Assembly (NCBI GenBank): GCA_035906295.1
Contig: JAMIFL010000128.1
Coordinates: 1 to 56,371, forward strand
Direction: 5' to 3'
Length of the DNA stretch: 56,371 nucleotides
Source: Alphaproteobacteria bacterium
GTDB taxonomy: Bacteria > Pseudomonadota > Alphaproteobacteria > Micavibrionales > UBA1664
Part shown: positions 2,802-47,680 of the stretch, piece after piece
Layout: every line of letters starts with the position of its first letter
Position numbering within the stretch: the stretch's first letter is position 1
Notes under the pieces: generated by a model
Databases searched by the model: none
Told to the model about the DNA's origin: nothing
The model's input: only the letters and a program-made list of their open reading frames with translations
Program-made: the position numbers and the translations under genes

Positions 2802-2893
2802 GCATTCCGGGGCCGCGGAATCCCTCAAGTTAAGGTTTTATTAAGTAAGCGGCTTTATGGTTGGGCGCATACCAAAAAACAGGAGCGTTCACC

Positions 2894-3013
2894 ATGACAC
2901 TGAGCCGCGCGTTTAACGTTACTTCGCATATCGTCGGGAAAAAGACGGCATCGGTCTTGGACGTGCTTCAGCGCAACGCGATGGCCATGGCGCAGGCGCC
3001 GCTGGCACGATAG
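2894..3013 (+). CDS. Possible small protein (39 aa), unknown function
   Basis: ATG at 2894 lies 7 nt after AGGAG. Peptide MTLSRAFNVTSHIVGKKTASVLDVLQRNAMAMAQAPLAR, stop TAG 3011-3013. Followed by hairpin repeats and a strong terminator. No homology evidence. Confidence 0.25.
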   Translation: MTLSRAFNVTSHIVGKKTASVLDVLQRNAMAMAQAPLAR

Positions 3014-3077
3014 CCGCGAAGCGGCCTGATGGCAGTCTAGCCGCGAAGCGGCGCTGACAGTGTAGCCGCGAAGCGGC
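3011..3077. repeat. Three tandem units TAGCCGCGAAGCGGC plus 10-12 nt, each with a GCCGC-GAA-GCGGC hairpin
   Basis: Unit starts read at 3011, 3038 and 3063 (periods 27 and 25 nt). Confidence 0.8.
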
Positions 3078-3122
3078 GGTGGCCAGCAGGTAACGGGACA
3101 GTTTCTCCTTTCGAGTGGAGAT

Positions 3123-6072: not shown

Positions 6073-6101
6073 GACCGCCCCACCGGGCGGTCTGATTTTT
6101 T
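6073..6101 (+). terminator. Intrinsic terminator/attenuator after rpmH
   Basis: GACCGCCC-cacc-GGGCGGTC followed by TGATTTTTT. Confidence 0.6.
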
Positions 6102-6201
6102 GTGTCCTGCGGACATTTCTGCGCGGCCTGAGGCCGCGCGGCCCACCGGGCGGTCTGATTTTTTGTGTCCTGCGGACATTTCTGCACGGCCTGAGGCCGT
6201 G
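6076..6201. repeat. Direct tandem duplication, 2 x 63 nt
   Basis: CACCGGGCGGTCTGATTTTTTGTGTCCTGCGGACATTTCTGC(G/A)CGGCCTGAGGCCG(C/T)GCGG occurs at 6081 and again at 6144. Each copy holds an 8-bp hairpin GC(G/A)CGGCC-TGA-GGCCG(C/T)GC. Confidence 0.9.
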
Positions 6202-6582
6202 CGGCGCAACGGGCGGCTGAAGAAGCGGTCAGATTTTTTGCGTTTGAGGGATTCCGGCAAAAAATGGGTTTCGCCCACGGTCATCGTGCAGGTGGCGGCC
6301 CCGGAAACCACGGATATTCGCGTCGGGTTCACCGCCACCAAAAAAATAGGCGGGGCGGTTGTGCGCAACCGCGCGAAGCGGCGGCTGCGGGAAGCGGCGC
6401 GCATGGCGCTCAAAGGCGCGCAGATGCCCAGCGACATCGTGCTTATCGGGCGCGAGAGCACGGCCACCTGCCCGTTCGCGGCGCTGCTGAAAGATATGCG
6501 CTGGTGTTTCAAGCGGCTTGAAATACATGGTCATGCGAATGGACATGATGCGAATGCGAAACCTGCTGGTCAGCCTTCTTAA
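6199..6582 (+). CDS. rnpA: Ribonuclease P protein component
   Basis: GRLKKRSDFLRLRDSGKKWVSPTVIVQV... and KKIGGAVVRNRAKRRLRE are typical RnpA. Start placed at in-frame GTG 6199 (127 aa) rather than ATG 6046, which would add a repeat-encoded 51-aa extension. Confidence 0.8.
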   Translation: MRRNGRLKKRSDFLRLRDSGKKWVSPTVIVQVAAPETTDIRVGFTATKKIGGAVVRNRAKRRLREAARMALKGAQMPSDIVLIGRESTATCPFAALLKDMRWCFKRLEIHGHANGHDANAKPAGQPS

Positions 6583-35826: not shown

Positions 35827-36549
35827 ATGCGAAGCAGCATCAAGAAATTCGATAAATCGATCCCCCCGCCCATGCAGGATTTCCTGCAGATTCCGTACGA
35901 AACACAGGCACCCAGCCCTGAATTCTGGGGCGAGGATTACAGCCACCGTTACCAGCAGCATGTGAGCACGCAGAAGAAGCGTTTCCTGCATGCCGTGCTG
36001 AGTTCCGTATTCGCCCATGCGGGCGGGCAGCGCGTTCTGCCGCGCATCGGCATCAATTCCCTGCTTTCAGGCGCGCATGCCGTGCTGGAATCGCGCGTCG
36101 GTTCAGGCACGCATGTGCCGATGATGAGCGACCGCCTGACCCACGTGGTGACCGACGGCCGCCACCCGGACCGCGCACTTATCGTTTCTTACGACCACCA
36201 CATGGTTTACGCGCTGAAGGGGCTTATCGACCGGCTGAACCCGACGCACCAGTACAACAGCCAGAAGGCCCCGACGGTGGACGCGTGCACCGAGCTTTAT
36301 TCCCGCGACGCCAAGGGCCGGGTGCGCCCTTCCGGCGCGATGCTGGTCATCCGCAACTTCCAGCACCTGGCGGTTACCGAAGATACGCTGGGCAGCGTGT
36401 ACAGCGAGGGCTGCCACACCAACCGCGTCTACATCGAGCTGGCGCAGCAGTTGAGCAGCCAGGTGCGCGGCGGCGGCGCCAGCGCATCAGGCATGCAACA
36501 GGGCCGTGGCCCGAACCATATGCCGGCGATGCGTTACGCAGTGGCTTGA
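35827..36549 (+). CDS. Hypothetical protein (240 aa)
   Basis: ORF with ordinary composition. AGGGAA about 10 nt upstream and a strong promoter upstream. No family recognised. Confidence 0.55.
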   Translation: MRSSIKKFDKSIPPPMQDFLQIPYETQAPSPEFWGEDYSHRYQQHVSTQKKRFLHAVLSSVFAHAGGQRVLPRIGINSLLSGAHAVLESRVGSGTHVPMMSDRLTHVVTDGRHPDRALIVSYDHHMVYALKGLIDRLNPTHQYNSQKAPTVDACTELYSRDAKGRVRPSGAMLVIRNFQHLAVTEDTLGSVYSEGCHTNRVYIELAQQLSSQVRGGGASASGMQQGRGPNHMPAMRYAVA

Positions 36550-36625
36550 GCCCCCGCAGATGCGGTGCGCGGTAGTCTAAGCCCCGCAGATGCGGTGCGC
36601 CGCGGCTTAACCCCGGCGGATGCAC
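36545..36625. repeat. Three degenerate tandem units (about 30 nt) with CCGCA-GA-TGCGG hairpins
   Basis: CTTGAGCCCCCGCAGATGCGGTGCGCGGTAGT / CTAAGCCCCGCAGATGCGGTGCGCCGCGG / CTTAACCCCGGCGGATGCAC. Confidence 0.75.
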
Positions 36626-40628: not shown

Positions 40629-41426
40629 TTAATCTTCGGATTTTGCCAATGCAGCCATGGTGGCCGCCACGTTGTGGACGCGCAGGATGCGCGCGCCCTT
40701 CCCCGCGGCGGTGACGGCGGCCATGGCGGAGGCGGCGTCGCGCTGTTCGGGGGCGGGGTCGCCGCCCATCATGCGGGCGATGAAGCGTTTGCGGGACAGG
40801 CCGCAGAGGACGGGGACGCCCAGCGCGGTGAAGCGACCGAAGTTTTCGAGCATCGCGATGTTGTGGTCGTATGTCTTGCCGAAGCCGAAGCCGGGGTCGG
40901 CGATGATGCGTTCATGCGCGATGCCGTGGGCAACGCAGGTTTCGATGCGATTCTGGAGCCATGCGAAAACGTCTTCGACCACGTCGTCATAAACGGGATT
41001 GTCCTGCATGTTTTCGGGTGTGCCCTGCATGTGCATGAGGCAGACGGGGCCGGTGGCGCGGGCCACGACGTCGAGCGCGCCTTCGCCGCGGAGGGCCGAA
41101 ATGTCGTTTATCATGTGGGCGCCGGCATCGAGCGCGGCGCGCATGGTTGCGGCGTTGCGCGTATCGACCGAGAGCATGGCGCCGCAGTCACGCAATGCAT
41201 GGATGACGGGGAGGATGCGGGCCTGTTCTTCCAGCGGGTCGAGGGGGGCGGCGCCGGGCCTTGTCGATTCACCGCCTATGTCGATGAGGCGGGCGCCCTG
41301 TTTTACCATGGCGCGGGCGTGGTCCACCGCGGCCTGCACCTGATAGAACTTGCCGCCGTCGGAGAAGGAATCGGGCGTCACGTTGCAGATGCCCATGACG
41401 AGGATTTTTTCCGGGGGCAACTGCAT
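40629..41426 (-). CDS. folP: Dihydropteroate synthase
   Basis: VMGICNVTPDSFSDGG, IDIGGESTRPGA, GFGFGKT. Confidence 0.93.
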   Translation of the reverse strand: MQLPPEKILVMGICNVTPDSFSDGGKFYQVQAAVDHARAMVKQGARLIDIGGESTRPGAAPLDPLEEQARILPVIHALRDCGAMLSVDTRNAATMRAALDAGAHMINDISALRGEGALDVVARATGPVCLMHMQGTPENMQDNPVYDDVVEDVFAWLQNRIETCVAHGIAHERIIADPGFGFGKTYDHNIAMLENFGRFTALGVPVLCGLSRKRFIARMMGGDPAPEQRDAASAMAAVTAAGKGARILRVHNVAATMAALAKSED

Positions 41427-41917
41427 CAGAGGGTTTCCGGGGTTGCGATTTGGTCAGCCGGGAGGCGGGCGATGAGGTCGGCCAGCGTGGTTTTGCTGAC
41501 GGGGTGCATCCAGTCGGGCGCGACATCGCGCAGCGGCAGGAGGACGAAGGCGCGTTCATGCGCGCGGGGGTGGGGGACGATGAGTTCGGGTTTATCGAGG
41601 ATGTGGTCGCCGTGGGCGATGAGGTCCAGATCGATGACGCGGGGGGCGTTGCGTTCGGCGCGGACGCGGCCCATGTCGTTTTCGATTGTCTGCAGCAGTT
41701 CGAGCAGGGCATAGGGCCCTAAGTCGGTTTCCAGCTTCACTACGGCGTTGTGGTACCAGGGCTGGTCGGATTCAGGGATGGGTTTGGTGATGAAAATGCG
41801 CGACAGGGCTGCGATGCGCAGGCCGTTTTCGCGCAGGCGGTCGGTGGCGGCCATGAGCGCTGCGCGGGGCGATGCGAAGACGCCCGGCAGGTTTGCGCCC
41901 AGCGCCACCAAAATCAC
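41426..41917 (-). CDS. folK: 2-amino-4-hydroxy-6-hydroxymethyldihydropteridine diphosphokinase
   Basis: MILVALGANL..., PRVIDLDLIAHGD, LIVPHPRAHERAFVLLPL. 1-nt TGATG overlap with folP. Confidence 0.9.
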   Translation of the reverse strand: MILVALGANLPGVFASPRAALMAATDRLRENGLRIAALSRIFITKPIPESDQPWYHNAVVKLETDLGPYALLELLQTIENDMGRVRAERNAPRVIDLDLIAHGDHILDKPELIVPHPRAHERAFVLLPLRDVAPDWMHPVSKTTLADLIARLPADQIATPETL

Positions 41918-43916: not shown

Positions 43917-44224
43917 ATTCGTAAACCCTTATATGCGTGTTTAAGGCTGCACACTACAAAGCCGCCACCCCCCACGTCAATGCGGAGTTGTTGACAATGT
44001 TGCGGCGCTTCAGGCAAGGTAGTCGGCGATGAACACGGTCCTGCACTCCGCACGATTTTATTACTGGTATTCCCTTTAAGGGTCTGCCGGTTTTACGACG
44101 TTCATCGAACATCAGAAAAAGCCCCAAGGCCCTTCCGGTACGGATAAGGGCCTTTTTCATCGGCTTCCCCTTTCCCACCGGATCAAAAAGCCAAGAGGCC
44201 GGATAGAGGAAAGAGAAATACACA

Positions 44225-44506
44225 ATGTTAAGCCCGATTACCGTTTTCGCCCTTGAGGCCGACACGCTGAAAACCGTGAAGGTGCACCCGCAAGGCCCCA
44301 TGATTCGCGCCGAAACCGTTGCGAAACAACCCCTCGACCTGCCGCGGGACCTGCACGACCTGTTCGCCGCGGCGCTTAAGCGCGGGCCCGTTCAGGTGGC
44401 CGTGTGCCGCATTCCCGGCGTGCGGGAAAACGCGCAGGGCACGCACCAGCGCGTGTACCTGGCGCCCGCCAACGACCGCATACAGACGGTGGGTGTGACC
44501 ATCTAG
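44225..44506 (+). CDS. Hypothetical protein (93 aa)
   Basis: ATG preceded by GAGGAAAGAG. Ends at the shared terminator. No family recognised. Confidence 0.4.
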   Translation: MLSPITVFALEADTLKTVKVHPQGPMIRAETVAKQPLDLPRDLHDLFAAALKRGPVQVAVCRIPGVRENAQGTHQRVYLAPANDRIQTVGVTI

Positions 44507-44507
44507 G

Positions 44508-44540
44508 CAAAAACCCCGGCTTTGAGCCGGGGTTTTTCTT
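44508..44540. terminator. Bidirectional terminator shared by the convergent 93-aa and 997-aa genes
   Basis: AAAAACCCCGGC-tttga-GCCGGGGTTTTT. Confidence 0.8.
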
Positions 44541-44568: not shown

Positions 44569-47562
44569 TCAGGCGACCGAGGGTCGCGCGGTCGGCAGGC
44601 GGGACTGGGGGACGCCCAACTGCATGCATTTCTTCTTGGCGGAGAAGGACATGCGGGTGGCGATGTCGGGCCGGGCGCGGGCGATTTTGGCCTGCGCGGC
44701 GGTCAGGGTCTGGAGAATCAGCGGTTCGGTCCATTTGAAGCGGGAGCCTTGTTCGACCGCGTTCAAGGCCAGCGTGGAGCCGCGGTTCTGTTCGAGGACG
44801 ATGAGCAGTTCGGCCTCGCGCGGGGTGAAGGTGATTTTGAGATTGCCGCATTTGAGCATGCCGCCCTCGCCTTCCTGCAAATCGAAATCGGTGGCGGGTT
44901 CGGCGGCGGGGGTTTCAGCGGCCAAGGCAGCCGAATGGCGCAAAGGCGTAAGCGCCCAGACATAGGCGCTGGCGCCATGGCGGCTGAAGGGCAGCACGAC
45001 ATCAGGGCAGTGGATGGCCCAGCGTTTTTCGACACGCTCGGCCATGCCTTTCACGTTCGCGATTTTGAGCCTGCGTTGCAGTTCATCGACGAAGAGGCCG
45101 CGGGGGTATTGTTCGGCCAGCAGGGTGAAGAGTTCGGTTTCCTGCGTGGAGAGGGCGAAGTCGGCGCCCTGTACCTTTGCGGCGCCGGTGGAGGGCGAGC
45201 GCAGGAGGACGAGGCCGCCGGTGAGTTCGACTTCCTCCGGCGTTTCGGCCGGTTCGGCAGCGCGGCGCTGGGCGGGCGCGGCACGGGGTGCGGGCGCTTC
45301 CTCCTCTATCACGTCGCCGTCGCGCAGCCATGCGAAGCCGCGGCCGCGCAGGGTGCGGAGTTTTTCGCCCCATTCGGTGGCGTGGAAATTGAGAATGCTG
45401 CGCAACTGGTTGACCGCGTGGGTCAGTTGGGCGGGGACGAAATTGCCGTCGCCGAAGACCTGGCGGTACAGGTCGGCGGACGACAGGGGCGCCGCCGTGT
45501 CGAGCTGTTCGCGGTGGGTATGCAGGGCGCGCAGGATTTTGACCTGCGGGGGCGTGAGGTCCTGATTTCGTTCATCGATGACGCCGCCGCCGGTTTCGGG
45601 GTCCACCTTCAGGGTGAAGCCGTCAAGCGGGTGGACGTCCCAGTTGATGACGCGCTGGGGCAGGTCCTGCTTCACGGTTTTAGGGGTGGGGGCCGCCTCG
45701 CCCGGCATGAGGCTGGCGTAGCCGTGGCCGTGGATGACGGCGAGCGCGTGCGCCCATTCCGGATTGATGCCGGTGAGGATGGAGCGCAGCTTGACCACGT
45801 CCTGCGAGATTTTCTGCTGCACGTAGGGGCGTGCGGGATAGACGCGTTCGAACATGTCGCGGTGGCTGACGATGGCGGGGCCTTCCTCGGTGCGCGCGGC
45901 GTGGGCCGCGGTGAGGATGGCGACCTGATAGGGGCGCAGGTCGACGGTGTGGCCTTCGATCATGCCGGTTTTCAGCGTGGGGTGGACGAGGACGGCGAAG
46001 TGGCCGAAATCATGCCGGTCCAGCGTTACTTCCGTGCCGGAGGCGCGGGCGAGGCGTTCGCGCATCAGGCCCTGCACGCGTTCCTTCGTTTCGGCGCGGG
46101 TGGTTTCGGGATCGGGGACTTCCTCGGCAGCGCCGTAGCTGACATAGGTGTCGTGGTAGATGTGGATGTTGGTGTCGGTTTCGCCCGCCTGTTCGAGTTT
46201 GCGGTACAAAGCGCGGGCGAGTTCGACGATATCCTCATCCGGCGATTTGTCGCCGCGCACGGGGTGGCTTTCGCCGCGGACCTGGCGGTAGAGCGAGTGG
46301 CCGCGCACGGCCTGCCCTTCGACCTGCACGAGTTGTTCGAGCAGGCGCAGTTCGGCTGTCGAGAACGCGATTTCGGTGCCGGTGAGCATGTAGCTGTTGG
46401 CGTTGTTGACGCGCAGGAACTGGTGCGGGCCCACGACCTTCACTTCCTGACGCAACTGCATGCTGAAGGTGCTGGCGTCGAAGACTTCGGGGTCGAAATA
46501 ATCGGGGTTGAGGGAGATGCGTTCATCTTCCGGGTCGACCATCAGCGCGGGGCCGCGGGCGACGAGGTAGCCGGAGAGAATGCTGTTGAGGGTATCCAGC
46601 GTTTCCTGATTGGACATCAGGAAATTGTCTTTCTGGGAGAGCGGGCGGCTCATGCGGTCGTGCAGGTATTCGAACATTTCGAACTGCGCATCGGTGATGG
46701 TGAGCGCGGTATCGGCCACGGCGTAGCCGCCGCCTTCCAGCGGGTCCAGGCGCAGCATGCCGCGGTGGACACGGTTCTCGGGCATGTCTTTGAGCATGTA
46801 ATAGCCGTCGCCCCATGACGTGCGCAGCAGGTCGAAGCCGAGGCCGGGGACACGCGCGTTGATTTTGCCGCGCACCTTGGTCATGAAGACGTCGATAATC
46901 TTGATTTCGGGTTCTTCCTCATCAAGGCCGTACATGCTTTTGAGGATCTGTTCCTTGGTGCGGACCTTGCCGCGCGCCCGCGCGAGGTAGGTGAGCACGC
47001 TGCGTTCGTGCGGCGTCAGCGGAATGCGGGCGCCATTGGCCGCCACCTCTCCGGTGCCGAGATCAATGGTCAGCGGACCCATGGAGAGGACGGCGCTGGC
47101 GCCAACGTTGCGGTTGACCGCGCGCGCGATTTTCAGCGGCAGCAGGGCCGGTTCGTTGGTCTGGTCGACGACGGTGGCGAAACCGGCGGAGAGGAGGTTG
47201 AATTCAACCTTGGGGCCCGGCGTGTCGACGTAGGCCACCAGCGGCATGTCGCCCGCGTTGTCGACGATGTCGCGGAGTTTCTTGAAATAAGGGTGGTTGC
47301 GCGCGTCGTGTTCGACCAGGTCGGCGTTGGGGACGACGAGGACCGCGTCGAAACCATCACCATCGCGGCGCAGGGTGGCGGCGAGTTCGTCGAGCGATTC
47401 AACGCCGAATTCCTCGTGCGCGAACGTGGCTGACCAGGGGATATTGCCGTAGTCGGCTTCAAGAAGCTTGAGGCGGCCGGGCAGTTCTTCGATGAGGTAG
47501 TCGCGGAATTCGCGGTCGGATTTCTTGGATTCGTCGGTATCGACGTAAATCAGCGTACGCAC
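44569..47562 (-). CDS. Multi-winged-helix (OmpR/PhoB-type) protein with degenerate receiver-like N-terminus (997 aa)
   Basis: GTG start 47560-47562 after AGGTGA. aa 158-258 is a canonical OmpR-type wHTH (PLTPHERSVLTYLARARGKVRTKEQIL...IIDVFMTKVRGKI...GDGYYM). About six more wHTH-like repeats follow. Confidence 0.85.
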   Translation of the reverse strand: MRTLIYVDTDESKKSDREFRDYLIEELPGRLKLLEADYGNIPWSATFAHEEFGVESLDELAATLRRDGDGFDAVLVVPNADLVEHDARNHPYFKKLRDIVDNAGDMPLVAYVDTPGPKVEFNLLSAGFATVVDQTNEPALLPLKIARAVNRNVGASAVLSMGPLTIDLGTGEVAANGARIPLTPHERSVLTYLARARGKVRTKEQILKSMYGLDEEEPEIKIIDVFMTKVRGKINARVPGLGFDLLRTSWGDGYYMLKDMPENRVHRGMLRLDPLEGGGYAVADTALTITDAQFEMFEYLHDRMSRPLSQKDNFLMSNQETLDTLNSILSGYLVARGPALMVDPEDERISLNPDYFDPEVFDASTFSMQLRQEVKVVGPHQFLRVNNANSYMLTGTEIAFSTAELRLLEQLVQVEGQAVRGHSLYRQVRGESHPVRGDKSPDEDIVELARALYRKLEQAGETDTNIHIYHDTYVSYGAAEEVPDPETTRAETKERVQGLMRERLARASGTEVTLDRHDFGHFAVLVHPTLKTGMIEGHTVDLRPYQVAILTAAHAARTEEGPAIVSHRDMFERVYPARPYVQQKISQDVVKLRSILTGINPEWAHALAVIHGHGYASLMPGEAAPTPKTVKQDLPQRVINWDVHPLDGFTLKVDPETGGGVIDERNQDLTPPQVKILRALHTHREQLDTAAPLSSADLYRQVFGDGNFVPAQLTHAVNQLRSILNFHATEWGEKLRTLRGRGFAWLRDGDVIEEEAPAPRAAPAQRRAAEPAETPEEVELTGGLVLLRSPSTGAAKVQGADFALSTQETELFTLLAEQYPRGLFVDELQRRLKIANVKGMAERVEKRWAIHCPDVVLPFSRHGASAYVWALTPLRHSAALAAETPAAEPATDFDLQEGEGGMLKCGNLKITFTPREAELLIVLEQNRGSTLALNAVEQGSRFKWTEPLILQTLTAAQAKIARARPDIATRMSFSAKKKCMQLGVPQSRLPTARPSVA

Positions 47563-47653
47563 TGCTCACCTGTCATTTTATTGTTACCCCCGGCTTCTGA
47601 TTAGCGCGGCGACAGGTGTTATGTCCAGTTTTCGTATCTGGTTTTTGGCAAAT

Positions 47654-47680
47654 AAAAAACCCCCGATGGCGGGGGTTTTT
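47654..47680. terminator. Intrinsic terminator after rplO
   Basis: AAAAAACCCCCG-atgg-CGGGGGTTTTT. On the minus strand it follows the rplO stop by about 40 nt. Confidence 0.8.

What the first reader, a model, noticed from the sequence alone, without database searches (positions are those of the whole stretch)
44569..47562. 997-aa protein built from one OmpR-like unit plus about six additional winged-helix repeats
aa 1-150 resemble a receiver fold, but the phospho-acceptor position is not Asp (FDAVLVVPNADL where D-x-x-x-x-D is expected) and the conserved Lys region is altered (GFATVVDQT). aa 158-258 are a canonical OmpR/PhoB wHTH. Six further segments repeat the same pattern: a beta-hairpin, then xLTxxExxLLxxL, a recognition helix and a G-x-G-Y/F wing. 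By my manual parse they lie at about aa 270-345, 378-476, 512-618, 640-747, 779-872 and 901-985. Examples are ALTITDAQFEMFEYL, IAFSTAELRLLEQLV, VDLRPYQVAILTAAH…VVKLRSILTG…HGHGYASL, QDLTPPQVKILRALH…VNQLRSILNF…RGRGFAWL, FALSTQETELFTLLAE…SAYVWAL and ITFTPREAELLIVLEQ. Repeats 4 and 5 are clearly paralogous. OmpR-family regulators normally have a single wHTH, so an array of about seven in one chain is an architecture I do not recognise. It could bind long arrays of direct repeats or act as a nucleoid or DNA-bridging protein. Its location inside the ribosomal operon adds to the oddity.
Basis: partly seen in the sequence, partly recalled or inferred. Interest (0 to 1): 0.8.

Follow-up and report, generated by a model that had tools for sequence, protein, structure and literature searches.

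The report
Seven winged-helix domains in one regulator
This is a real gene for a rare bacterial regulator: a response-regulator-like head that has lost its phosphorylation site, followed by seven copies of the OmpR-type DNA-binding domain in one chain, where normal family members have one; what it does is untested.

Summary

- **Head:** residues 1-153 fold as a receiver domain but lack the acceptor Asp, the Thr/Ser and the Lys.
- **First DNA-binding domain:** residues 158-256 are a strong CtrA-like Trans_reg_C winged helix (wHTH).
- **Six further segments:** each matches an OmpR-type wHTH profile at 90-99% hhalign probability; reversed or shuffled controls reach at most 3%. AlphaFold gives the wHTH strand-helix order to w2-w5 and w7. 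w6 is the weakest and has no confident wing.
- **Relatives:** only about nine representative clusters were found among 1.8 billion proteins. All named ones come from Micavibrio-like alphaproteobacterial metagenome genomes. They carry one to four copies of the w4/w5-type module.
- **Sister family:** a separate family has the same head plus eight wHTH domains.
- **Location:** the gene lies between rplO and secY, but strong intrinsic terminators flank it, and a close relative has the same site empty. It is an inserted, independent transcription unit, not part of the ribosomal operon.

Most likely it is an orphan, phosphorylation-independent, multivalent DNA-binding regulator. That function is inferred, not shown. 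I rate it a new variant of a known kind, of moderately high interest.

The parts
44569..47562 (-). Complete gene: 997 codons plus a TGA stop, GTG start. It encodes a pseudo-receiver followed by seven wHTH modules.
   Evidence: ORF list and translation. An in-frame stop lies immediately upstream of the GTG. Orthologues start with the same MR(T/C)L....
47104..47562 (-). aa 1-153: receiver-like (beta-alpha)5 domain without phospho-acceptor chemistry. The acceptor position is V77/N79, the Thr/Ser position is V112/D113 and the Lys position is Q134. D8 is retained.
   Evidence: No Pfam Response_reg hit. hhalign to a receiver profile gives 95.7% over aa 54-146. The AF2 model has pLDDT above 90 here. 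Foldseek matches full-length CosR, PmrA and KdpE with target TM-scores up to 0.73. Active-site columns are shown.
46795..47091 (-). aa 158-256: wHTH 1, a canonical Trans_reg_C domain and CtrA-like (recognition helix IKIIDVFMTKVRGKI, wing WGDGY).
   Evidence: Pfam scores 52.7 bits for the segment alone. The best NCBIfam match is CtrA, at 66 bits against a cut-off of 350. hhalign 100%. AF2 and Foldseek agree.
46510..46770 (-). aa 265-351: wHTH 2. It is strongly acidic (net -10, pI 4.3) and in the model it packs against the receiver and w1.
   Evidence: hhalign 89.8%. AF2 gives pLDDT above 90 with strands 265-267, 270-274 and 280-282, helices 291-302, 313-317 and 319-332, and a hairpin at 340-351. 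Charge.
46135..46443 (-). aa 374-476: wHTH 3, with a conserved basic insertion (RGxSHxxRG) between helices 2 and 3.
   Evidence: Pfam Trans_reg_C 20.5 bits. hhalign 94.5%. AF2 shows four strands, three helices and a hairpin at pLDDT about 75-85. Invariant residues are listed.
45715..46020 (-). aa 515-616: wHTH 4, with wing HGHGY. It is preceded by a long linker helix at aa 485-508.
   Evidence: hhalign 98.7%. The equivalent domains in P0004 and P0006 score 29-31 bits against the non-family HMM. AF2 topology.
45328..45639 (-). aa 642-745: wHTH 5, with wing RGRGF. It is a paralogue of w4. This is the module whose copy number varies between orthologues (0 to 3 copies).
   Evidence: Pfam 21.3 bits. 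hhalign 96.8% to the wHTH profile and 99.4% to w4. Copy counts.
44947..45237 (-). aa 776-872: wHTH 6, the most degenerate module. It has the strands and three helices, but no confidently modelled wing.
   Evidence: hhalign 95.4% over 72 columns and 72% to w5. AF2 pLDDT is about 55-70. Its profile finds nothing in PDB sequences.
44617..44880 (-). aa 895-982: wHTH 7, basic (net +4, pI 9.4).
   Evidence: hhalign 95.0%. Searched against PDB sequences, its profile returns OmpR-family DNA-binding domains almost exclusively (VicR 7.9e-5, RstA 1.4e-4). AF2 topology. Charge.
47651..47680 (-). Intrinsic terminator after rplO, upstream of the gene: CCCCCG-CCAT-CGGGGG followed by a U run.
   Evidence: Read from the sequence. 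RNA fold -20.1 kcal/mol, z -4.2. L003 has an equivalent hairpin. The simple consensus scan missed it.
47616..47627 (-). TGGACATAACAC: a -35-like element with a conserved TAA..ACAC extension. It is a candidate promoter or operator of the gene.
   Evidence: One copy here and two copies 32 nt apart in L003. T(T/G)GAC(A/G)TAA also lies upstream of the L001, L087 and L094 genes, with looser versions in three other loci. The motif is not enriched elsewhere in the window. Its function was not tested.
47566..47571 (-). Shine-Dalgarno-like AGGTGA, ending 3 nt before the GTG start.
   Evidence: Read from the sequence.
44509..44537 (-). Bidirectional intrinsic terminator after the stop codon, shared with the convergent 93-aa gene.
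   Evidence: Read from the sequence. RNA fold -21.7 kcal/mol, z -5.0.

Best explanation
**What it is.** The gene encodes an orphan, phosphorylation-independent transcription factor of the OmpR/PhoB type, closest to CtrA.

**Shown.** A receiver-fold domain that has lost its phospho-acceptor residues is followed by one well-conserved CtrA-like winged helix (w1) and six diverged winged-helix modules in the same chain.

**Inferred working model.**
- The compact N-terminal part (receiver, w1, w2, and probably w3 and w4) is the sequence-specific anchor at a promoter.
- The modules that keep a basic wing and basic recognition-helix residues (w4, w5-type, w7) contact further, non-identical half-sites along the same DNA or on a second duplex. 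They reach these through flexible Pro/Ala/Glu-rich linkers of 22-30 residues.
- One polypeptide would then do what ordinary OmpR/PhoB proteins do only after phosphorylation-driven head-to-tail oligomerisation on tandem direct repeats.
- The acidic modules, above all w2, are more likely structural or protein-contact elements than DNA binders.

**Transcription.** The gene is transcribed on its own, from a promoter between two terminators. It is not part of the ribosomal operon.
For: **Architecture.** Seven wHTH envelopes. hhalign 90-100% with clean controls. AF2 topologies. Foldseek top hits are PhoB, CadC, ArlR and GlnR DNA-binding domains, and full-length CosR, PmrA and KdpE. The w7 profile retrieves OmpR-family DNA-binding domains from PDB sequences.

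**Pseudo-receiver.**. No kinase gene lies next to it.

**w1 is CtrA-like and the most conserved module.** Mean pairwise identity is 49%. Its recognition helix and wing are invariant among the four closest members.

**Features that fit DNA binding in the extra modules.**
- The G-x-G-Y/F wings of w4 and w5 are conserved.
- Among w5-type copies, the basic wing (KRGKG[YF] / LRGRGF) and the C-terminal half of helix 3 are conserved.
- The helix 2-helix 3 loop and the N-terminal half of helix 3 vary most; in PhoB that is where base contacts lie.
- w1, w4 and w7 are neutral to basic.

**Modularity.** Orthologues have 1-4 copies of the w4/w5-type module, giving 6-9 wHTH in total. A sister family has eight wHTH, of which Pfam itself detects 4-5.

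**Purifying selection.** Every module has invariant residues across the four closest members (43-51% identity to the window protein).

**Independent transcription unit.**

**No conserved neighbourhood,** as expected for a stand-alone regulator.
Against: - No DNA target is known. The 56-kb window contains no array of 10-11-bp direct repeats.
- The protein is acidic overall (pI 5.6, net -26). w2, w3, w5 and w6 are net acidic.
- w2, w6 and w7 match the wHTH HMM only over the strands and helix 1 in plain hmmsearch. w6 has no modelled wing, so several modules may not bind DNA.
- The full-length model has pTM 0.26, so nothing can be said about how the modules are arranged in space.
- The variability pattern in the w5-type repeats rests on seven sequences.
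Confidence: 0.5

Rival explanations
1. Only w1 binds DNA. The six other winged-helix modules have been turned into a protein-protein (or RNA) interaction scaffold. They might recruit RNA polymerase, other response regulators or cell-cycle and motility factors, as tandem winged helices do in several non-OmpR proteins.
For: w2 is strongly acidic, and w3, w5 and w6 are net acidic. w2, w6 and w7 match the wHTH HMM only partly, and w6 lacks a confident wing. In the high-confidence model, w2 packs against the receiver and w1 (pTM 0.84), which suggests a structural role. Two relatives sit next to canonical OmpR-type regulators, and one of these also sits next to Hpt and single receiver genes. From general knowledge: SelB, ESCRT-II and cullins use tandem winged helices for RNA or protein contacts.
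Against: w4, w5 and w7 keep basic wings and basic helix-3 residues. The w7 profile still retrieves DNA-binding domains. In the sister family, 4-5 of the eight modules still score as bona fide Trans_reg_C in Pfam. Duplicating a w5-type module up to three times is easier to explain as extending a DNA footprint.
Confidence: 0.3
2. It is a nucleoid-associated or DNA-bridging protein that binds DNA with little sequence specificity through many weak winged-helix contacts.
For: It has many potential DNA-binding modules joined by flexible linkers. It has no conserved gene neighbourhood.
Against: The protein is acidic (pI 5.6, net -26) and very large, unlike known nucleoid proteins. Its anchor domain is highly conserved, CtrA-like and presumably sequence-specific. 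The family is very rare and lineage-restricted. The modules have diverged from one another rather than being kept uniform.
Confidence: 0.1
3. It is an assembly or annotation artefact: several frameshifted genes fused, or a decaying pseudogene.
For: None found. The only reason to consider it is the unusual length.
Against: The ORF is uninterrupted. Collinear orthologues of 800-1254 aa occur in independent assemblies from NCBI, ENA, JGI and Logan; one cluster was seen on 21 contigs. Every module has conserved residues. GC3 is 0.82, like the neighbouring genes.
Confidence: 0.02

Closest known systems
Atypical, phosphorylation-independent OmpR/PhoB-family regulators (HP1043 of Helicobacter, ChxR of Chlamydia, GlnR of actinomycetes, RitR of Streptococcus, CosR of Campylobacter)
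   Same: It has a receiver fold with lost or altered acceptor chemistry joined to a Trans_reg_C wHTH, and it is an orphan gene with no adjacent kinase. Foldseek lists CosR, HP1043 (2hqr), RitR and GlnR among the structural matches of aa 1-372.
   Different: Those proteins are about 220-230 aa with a single DNA-binding domain, and they act as dimers. This one carries six extra wHTH modules in the same chain (997 aa).
CtrA, the alphaproteobacterial cell-cycle and motility response regulator
   Same: w1 has a nearly CtrA-type recognition helix and wing. CtrA is the best NCBIfam match. The nearest hits in reference genomes are alphaproteobacterial OmpR-type (probably CtrA) genes, 40-47% identical over the DNA-binding domain.
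   Different: It scores 66 bits against an equivalog cut-off of 350. It has no acceptor Asp and has seven wHTH modules. The only TTAA-N7-TTAA site in the window is far from the gene.
Sister family of about 1030-1180-aa proteins (P0015, P0017, P0019, P0031, P0137), annotated only as 'winged helix-turn-helix domain-containing protein'
   Same: They have the same receiver-like head followed by a long tandem array of OmpR-type wHTH domains. They come from related alphaproteobacterial metagenome genomes and are also uncharacterised.
   Different: They have eight regular, better-preserved wHTH domains. Sequence similarity to the window protein is limited to the receiver, w1 and w2 (about 24-33% identity). 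The later modules do not correspond one to one. An Asp is kept near the acceptor position.
Oligomeric binding of OmpR or PhoB to tandem direct repeats (OmpR at the F1-F2-F3 sites, PhoB at multiple pho boxes). This is a functional analogy drawn from general knowledge.
   Same: Several wHTH domains of the same fold would line up head to tail along DNA.
   Different: In those systems the domains belong to separate, identical, phosphorylated monomers. Here they are covalently linked and all different. Whether they line up on DNA at all is not known.

Membership tests
OmpR/PhoB-family response regulator | N-terminal CheY-like receiver fold | tested here: met
   AF2 shows a (beta-alpha)5 fold at pLDDT above 90. 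Foldseek matches full-length CosR, PmrA and KdpE with target TM-scores of 0.70-0.73. hhalign gives 95.7%. Pfam Response_reg itself gives no hit.
OmpR/PhoB-family response regulator | Phospho-acceptor Asp at the end of strand 3, plus the conserved Thr/Ser (strand 4) and Lys (strand 5) | tested here: not met
   The acceptor column is V77 by profile alignment or N79 by family alignment. In orthologues it is N, E or H. The Thr/Ser position is V112/D113 and the Lys position is Q134.
OmpR/PhoB-family response regulator | C-terminal Trans_reg_C winged helix-turn-helix | tested here: met
   PF00486 scores 92.8 bits for the whole protein and 52.7 bits for w1 alone, against a cut-off of 26.2.
OmpR/PhoB-family response regulator | Two-domain architecture of about 220-250 aa with a single effector domain | tested here: not met
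   The protein is 997 aa with seven wHTH modules.
OmpR/PhoB-family response regulator | Partner histidine kinase, usually encoded next to it | tested here: not met
   The neighbours are rplO, a 93-aa ORF of unknown function, secY, adk, folK and folP. A distant kinase cannot be excluded from a 56-kb contig.
CtrA (NCBIfam NF045991 equivalog) | Score at or above the curated equivalog cut-off | tested here: not met
   66 bits against 350. The match covers only the DNA-binding domain, aa 144-259.
CtrA (NCBIfam NF045991 equivalog) | Binding to TTAA-N7-TTAA boxes | not testable with these tools
   The window has one such site (2830-2844; 0.07 expected by chance), and it is not near the gene.
Atypical phosphorylation-independent OmpR-type regulators (HP1043, ChxR, GlnR, RitR, CosR) | Receiver fold without functional acceptor chemistry, orphan gene, OmpR-type wHTH | tested here: met
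   No adjacent kinase.
Atypical phosphorylation-independent OmpR-type regulators (HP1043, ChxR, GlnR, RitR, CosR) | Activity independent of phosphorylation, with a constitutive dimer through the alpha4-beta5-alpha5 face | not testable with these tools
   This needs biochemistry.
Sister eight-wHTH family (P0017 type) | Receiver-like head plus a tandem array of OmpR-type wHTH domains | tested here: met
   Pfam sees 4-5 Trans_reg_C domains per member and the iterated HMM sees eight. The window protein has seven.
Sister eight-wHTH family (P0017 type) | Collinear, module-by-module homology along the whole array | tested here: inconclusive
   Only the receiver, w1 and w2 align. The hhalign matrix of 7 x 8 modules shows no diagonal beyond w1 to d1.
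Nucleoid-associated proteins | Small, abundant, basic protein that binds DNA with low specificity | tested here: not met
   The protein is 997 aa with pI 5.6 and net charge -26. Abundance cannot be tested.

The most novel reading that the evidence does not exclude
The protein and its relatives (6-9 modules), perhaps together with the eight-module sister family, could be a bacterial counterpart of poly-zinc-finger arrays. In this reading it is a single-chain array of diverged OmpR-type winged helices in which each module reads its own half-site. Gain or loss of w5-type modules would lengthen or shorten a long composite operator. Specificity changes would be concentrated in the N-terminal half of the recognition helix.
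Probability: 0.25. Interest if true: 0.85.

Novelty: new variant of a known kind. Interest (0 to 1): 0.62.

Why it matters
OmpR/PhoB regulators are among the largest families of bacterial transcription factors. As far as I know, all characterised members have one winged-helix domain and become multivalent only by oligomerising.

A natural chain of six to nine such domains would be a different route to long or composite DNA recognition. The variable module number and the head that can no longer be phosphorylated add to this. If the modules read DNA independently, it could also be a possible scaffold for engineering.

The family is confined to little-studied Micavibrio-like (predatory or epibiotic) alphaproteobacteria. 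Its CtrA-like anchor domain hints at a lineage-specific layer of cell-cycle or motility control. In one marine lineage the orthologue lies inside a flagellar gene cluster.

All of this is inferred. The protein has only generic or 'hypothetical' annotation in the databases.

Tried and rejected
- **Word-indexed homologue searches.** The first (full-length protein) found three relatives. The second (10-sequence alignment A2) added only one ordinary 256-aa response regulator. The third (alignment of C-terminal parts only, A3) returned only the query. The exhaustive HMMER search of representatives was what revealed the family.
- **First profile-profile test.** With only four sequences per segment it was inconclusive for most pairs, apart from w4-w5. 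It became decisive only against a deep wHTH profile.
- **Full-length AlphaFold model.** With a four-sequence alignment it modelled the receiver, w1 and w2 poorly. This was solved by remodelling aa 1-372 with 59 sequences.
- **w6 profile against PDB sequences.** No hit.
- **Rfam.** Nothing in the window.
- **PADLOC and PHROGs.** PADLOC gave no hit. PHROGs gave only generic response-regulator families.
- **Consensus terminator scan.** It missed both terminators, which I then read directly and confirmed by folding.
- **Search for candidate target arrays.** Tandem repeats in the window have periods of 25, 30 and 63 nt and no link to the gene. The TGGACATAA motif is not enriched.
- **Recent horizontal transfer.** Rejected as unsupported: GC3 is like the neighbours.
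- **Recent DNA-level duplication of w4 and w5.** Rejected: there is no nucleotide similarity.
- **Literature.** Four searches for multi-Trans_reg_C or tandem OmpR-type winged helices, or for Micavibrio response regulators, found nothing relevant. A fifth, on Micavibrionales alone, returned only ecology and metagenome papers.


Full report
**1. The object**

The finding's coordinates hold a single uninterrupted ORF, but on the minus strand: 44569-47562, GTG start, 997 aa. An in-frame stop lies directly upstream of the GTG. An AGGTGA Shine-Dalgarno-like element ends 3 nt before it. Orthologues begin with the same MR(T/C)L residues. GC3 is 0.82, like the neighbouring secY, adk, folK and folP (0.81-0.86).

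**2. Checking the repeat claim**

Pfam alone is not enough. It reports nothing for segments 2, 4, 6 and 7 or for the N-terminus. I therefore ran four further tests.

- **(a) HMM from non-family domains.** I iterated a wHTH HMM on the non-family hits only, giving 176 domains. Searched against the protein, it finds exactly seven envelopes: 161-256, 281-312, 390-461, 527-616, 651-743, 792-829 and 904-932. The same pattern appears in the orthologues, where the w4-equivalent reaches 24-31 bits.
- **(b) Profile-profile comparison.** Each segment, as an alignment of 3-9 family members, was compared with the 176-domain profile. Probabilities were 100, 89.8, 94.5, 98.7, 96.8, 95.4 and 95.0% for w1 to w7, over 67-92 of 92 columns and always in register (strands, the LTxxExxLL helix, helix 2, the recognition helix, the wing). 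The receiver segment scored 0.5%. Reversed or column-shuffled segments scored at most 3.2%.
- **(c) Structure prediction.**
  - The first full-length model used only four sequences (mean pLDDT 55, pTM 0.26). It still gave w3, w4, w5 and w7 the order three or four strands, three helices, hairpin at pLDDT 60-85. w6 has the strands and helices but no confident wing. Its best PDB matches are all OmpR-type DNA-binding domains: PhoB 1gxp (target TM-score 0.73), CadC, ArlR and GlnR.
  - A second model of aa 1-372 used a 59-sequence alignment and is confident (pLDDT 92.3, pTM 0.84). It shows a (beta-alpha)5 receiver, then w1, then w2 with the same wHTH topology. It matches full-length CosR, PmrA and KdpE (target TM-scores up to 0.73) and the atypical regulators HP1043, RitR and GlnR.
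- **(d) Independent sequence check against PDB.** The w7 profile retrieves almost only OmpR-family DNA-binding domains (VicR 7.9e-5, RstA 1.4e-4). The w6 profile retrieves nothing.

Conclusion: there are seven wHTH modules, and w6 is the weakest call. Refined boundaries are:

| Module | Residues |
|---|---|
| w1 | 158-256 |
| w2 | 265-351 |
| w3 | 374-476 |
| w4 | 515-616 |
| w5 | 642-745 |
| w6 | 776-872 |
| w7 | 895-982 |

w4 and w5 are true paralogues (hhalign 99.4%, 31% identity, no DNA-level similarity), so the duplication is old.

**3. The receiver**

- hhalign to a receiver profile gives 95.7% over aa 54-146.
- The acceptor Asp column is Val77 in that alignment.
- In the family alignment, the short and sister forms keep an Asp that aligns to Asn79. 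In the close orthologues that position is N, N, E, N, N and H.
- The Lys column is Gln134, and the Thr/Ser position is V112/D113.
- Asp8 of the acidic pocket is invariant among the four closest members.
- The fold is kept but the phosphorylation chemistry is gone. No kinase gene is adjacent.

**4. Relatives**

The exhaustive search of 1.84 billion representatives found about nine close clusters, two of them fragments. Full-length members are 662-1125 aa at 31-50% identity; P0002 (1254 aa) came from the word-indexed search. Named members are 'hypothetical protein [Micavibrio sp.]'.

The alignment shows that the number of w4/w5-type modules varies:

| Protein | w4/w5-type modules |
|---|---|
| P0004, P0005, P0006 | 1 |
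| window protein | 2 |
| P0003 | 3 |
| P0002 | 4 |

This gives six to nine wHTH modules in total.

Other relatives:
- P0009 (662 aa) shows four wHTH envelopes.
- Proteins of about 280 aa (P0010, P0011, P0014) have the same unusual receiver plus a single wHTH.
- A sister family (P0015, P0017, P0019, P0031, P0137; 1034-1182 aa) has the receiver-like head plus eight wHTH. NCBI calls it 'winged helix-turn-helix domain-containing protein'. Pfam itself scores 4-5 domains per member, 167-206 bits in total.
- A module-by-module comparison of the two families shows no collinearity beyond w1. Whether the arrays have a common or independent origin is open.

Conservation falls along the chain: receiver 44%, w1 49%, w2 41%, w3 43%, w4 39%, w6 29%, w7 32% mean pairwise identity.

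**5. Genomic setting**

On the minus strand the gene order is: rplR, rpsE, rpmD, rplO, the gene, [93-aa ORF on the plus strand], secY, adk, folK, folP..., rpoA, rplQ. The position between rplO and secY is shared by the 51%-identical orthologue in L003/L004. Four observations show it is not an operon member.

- A strong intrinsic terminator follows rplO (47651-47680; -20.1 kcal/mol, z -4.2).
- A second, bidirectional terminator follows the gene's stop codon (44509-44537; -21.7 kcal/mol, z -5.0). L003 has an equivalent hairpin after rplO.
- A conserved small antisense gene separates the gene from secY: window 44225-44506, with homologues in L003 and L089.
- A relative whose S5 protein is at least 90% identical (GCA_020638235.1) has rplO, the small antisense ORF and secY with no such gene.

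More distant orthologues lie elsewhere:
- near purA;
- inside a flagellar cluster, in at least 17 of the 21 contigs that carry that protein;
- next to an OmpR-type regulator and an outer-membrane efflux protein gene;
- near a DEAD-box helicase.

Sister-family genes are also scattered: one lies between thrS and infC and one lies next to an OmpR-type regulator, Hpt and two single receivers.

Upstream of the gene lies TGGACATAACAC (47616-47627). L003 has two copies 32 nt apart. T(T/G)GAC(A/G)TAA is found upstream of three further orthologue or sister-family genes, with looser versions in three more. It looks like a near-consensus -35 element with a conserved extension. Whether it is also an operator is unknown, and it is not enriched elsewhere in the window.

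**6. How it probably works**

*Shown:* the architecture, the loss of acceptor residues, the CtrA-like nature and high conservation of w1, the variable module number and the independent transcription unit.

*Inferred:* it is a phosphorylation-independent DNA-binding regulator in which several modules contact DNA. The arguments for this are:
- w1, w4 and w7 are neutral to basic.
- w4 and w5 keep the G-x-G-Y/F wing.
- Among seven w5-type copies, the basic wing and the C-terminal half of helix 3 are conserved. The helix 2-helix 3 loop and the N-terminal half of helix 3, where PhoB makes its base contacts (general knowledge), are the most variable part.
- w5, w6 and w7 are joined by disordered Pro/Ala/Glu-rich linkers of 22-30 residues. 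The N-terminal half is more compact: the w1-w2 linker is 8 residues, the 1-372 model has pTM 0.84, and a long helix at 485-508 precedes w4.

*Against:* the whole protein is acidic (pI 5.6, net -26) and w2 has net charge -10. Some modules are therefore probably structural or protein-binding. No target is known, and no suitable repeat array is present in the window.

I put about 0.5 on the multivalent DNA-reader model, 0.3 on 'only w1 binds DNA and the rest is a scaffold', 0.1 on a nucleoid-type or bridging role, and 0.02 on an artefact.

**7. Comparison with what is known, and novelty**

It works most like the atypical orphan OmpR-type regulators (HP1043, ChxR, GlnR, RitR, CosR), and its anchor domain is closest to CtrA. 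It fails the membership tests for a canonical response regulator: no acceptor residues, seven effector domains instead of one, and no adjacent kinase. It also fails the test for CtrA (66 against 350 bits).

Four literature searches for multi-Trans_reg_C or tandem OmpR-type winged helices, or for Micavibrio response regulators, found nothing relevant, and a search on Micavibrionales returned only ecology and metagenome papers. Database names are generic. I rate it a new variant of a known kind: every part is familiar, but I found no description of six to nine OmpR-type winged helices in one chain behind a dead receiver.

Interest is moderately high (0.62). A specialist would be surprised by the architecture, but the function is entirely inferred and the family is rare and restricted to one lineage.

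Noticed in passing
window 44225-44506 (+); L003 4239-4529; L089 11454-11864: A conserved small ORF (93-136 aa) lies antisense to the ribosomal cluster between rplO and secY. It is also present in the relative that lacks the big gene. It has no Pfam, PADLOC or PHROG match. The 115-aa minus-strand ORF at 43954-44301 is probably spurious.
   Followed up: partly
window 44048-44068 (-); L003 4684-4704; L089 12035-12055; L090; L091: The block ACCAGTAATAAAATCG(TG/GC)CGG is conserved about 130-190 nt upstream of secY in all related loci, with or without the big gene. It may be a promoter or leader element of secY, or belong to the divergent small ORF. Rfam finds nothing there.
   Followed up: partly
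window 40629-41917 (-); L003 6838-8168: folK and folP directly follow adk in the window and in L003. The relative in L089 instead has adk, a 198-aa ORF of unknown function, then rpsM. rpoA and rplQ do follow further downstream in the window. The ribosomal cluster of this lineage has therefore taken up several foreign insertions.
   Followed up: partly
window 2830-2844 and 2998-3078: The putA-purD intergenic region holds the only TTAA-N7-TTAA (CtrA-box-like) site in the window (0.07 expected by chance) and a 25-nt tandem repeat of about three copies.
   Followed up: no
window 6079-6220 and 36528-36623: There are two further tandem repeats. One has a 63-nt unit (2.3 copies) and overlaps the 5' end of the ORF that carries the RNase P protein domain. 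The other has a 30-nt unit (3.2 copies) just downstream of rplQ. Their nature is unknown.
   Followed up: no
L087 8001-11165 (P0017, GCA_020638235.1): The eight-wHTH sister-family gene sits between thrS and infC on the opposite strand, so it too is inserted in a cluster of translation genes. Other sister-family members lie elsewhere, so this may be coincidence.
   Followed up: partly
L085/L086 8001-10598 (P0153, marine Micavibrio sp. MAGs): The 35%-identical orthologue lies inside a flagellar gene cluster (flhB, fliR, fliQ, fliE, flgC, flgB, fliP upstream; motB and fliM downstream). Most contigs that carry this protein show this neighbourhood (2 places shown plus 16 similar ones, out of 21 contigs read). 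This is a lead for a link to motility.
   Followed up: no
L097 63-962 and 4824-6011; L092 3449-4189: Two relatives sit next to a canonical OmpR-type response regulator gene. In L097 there are also an Hpt gene and two single receiver genes. This may hint at cross-talk with phosphorelays.
   Followed up: no
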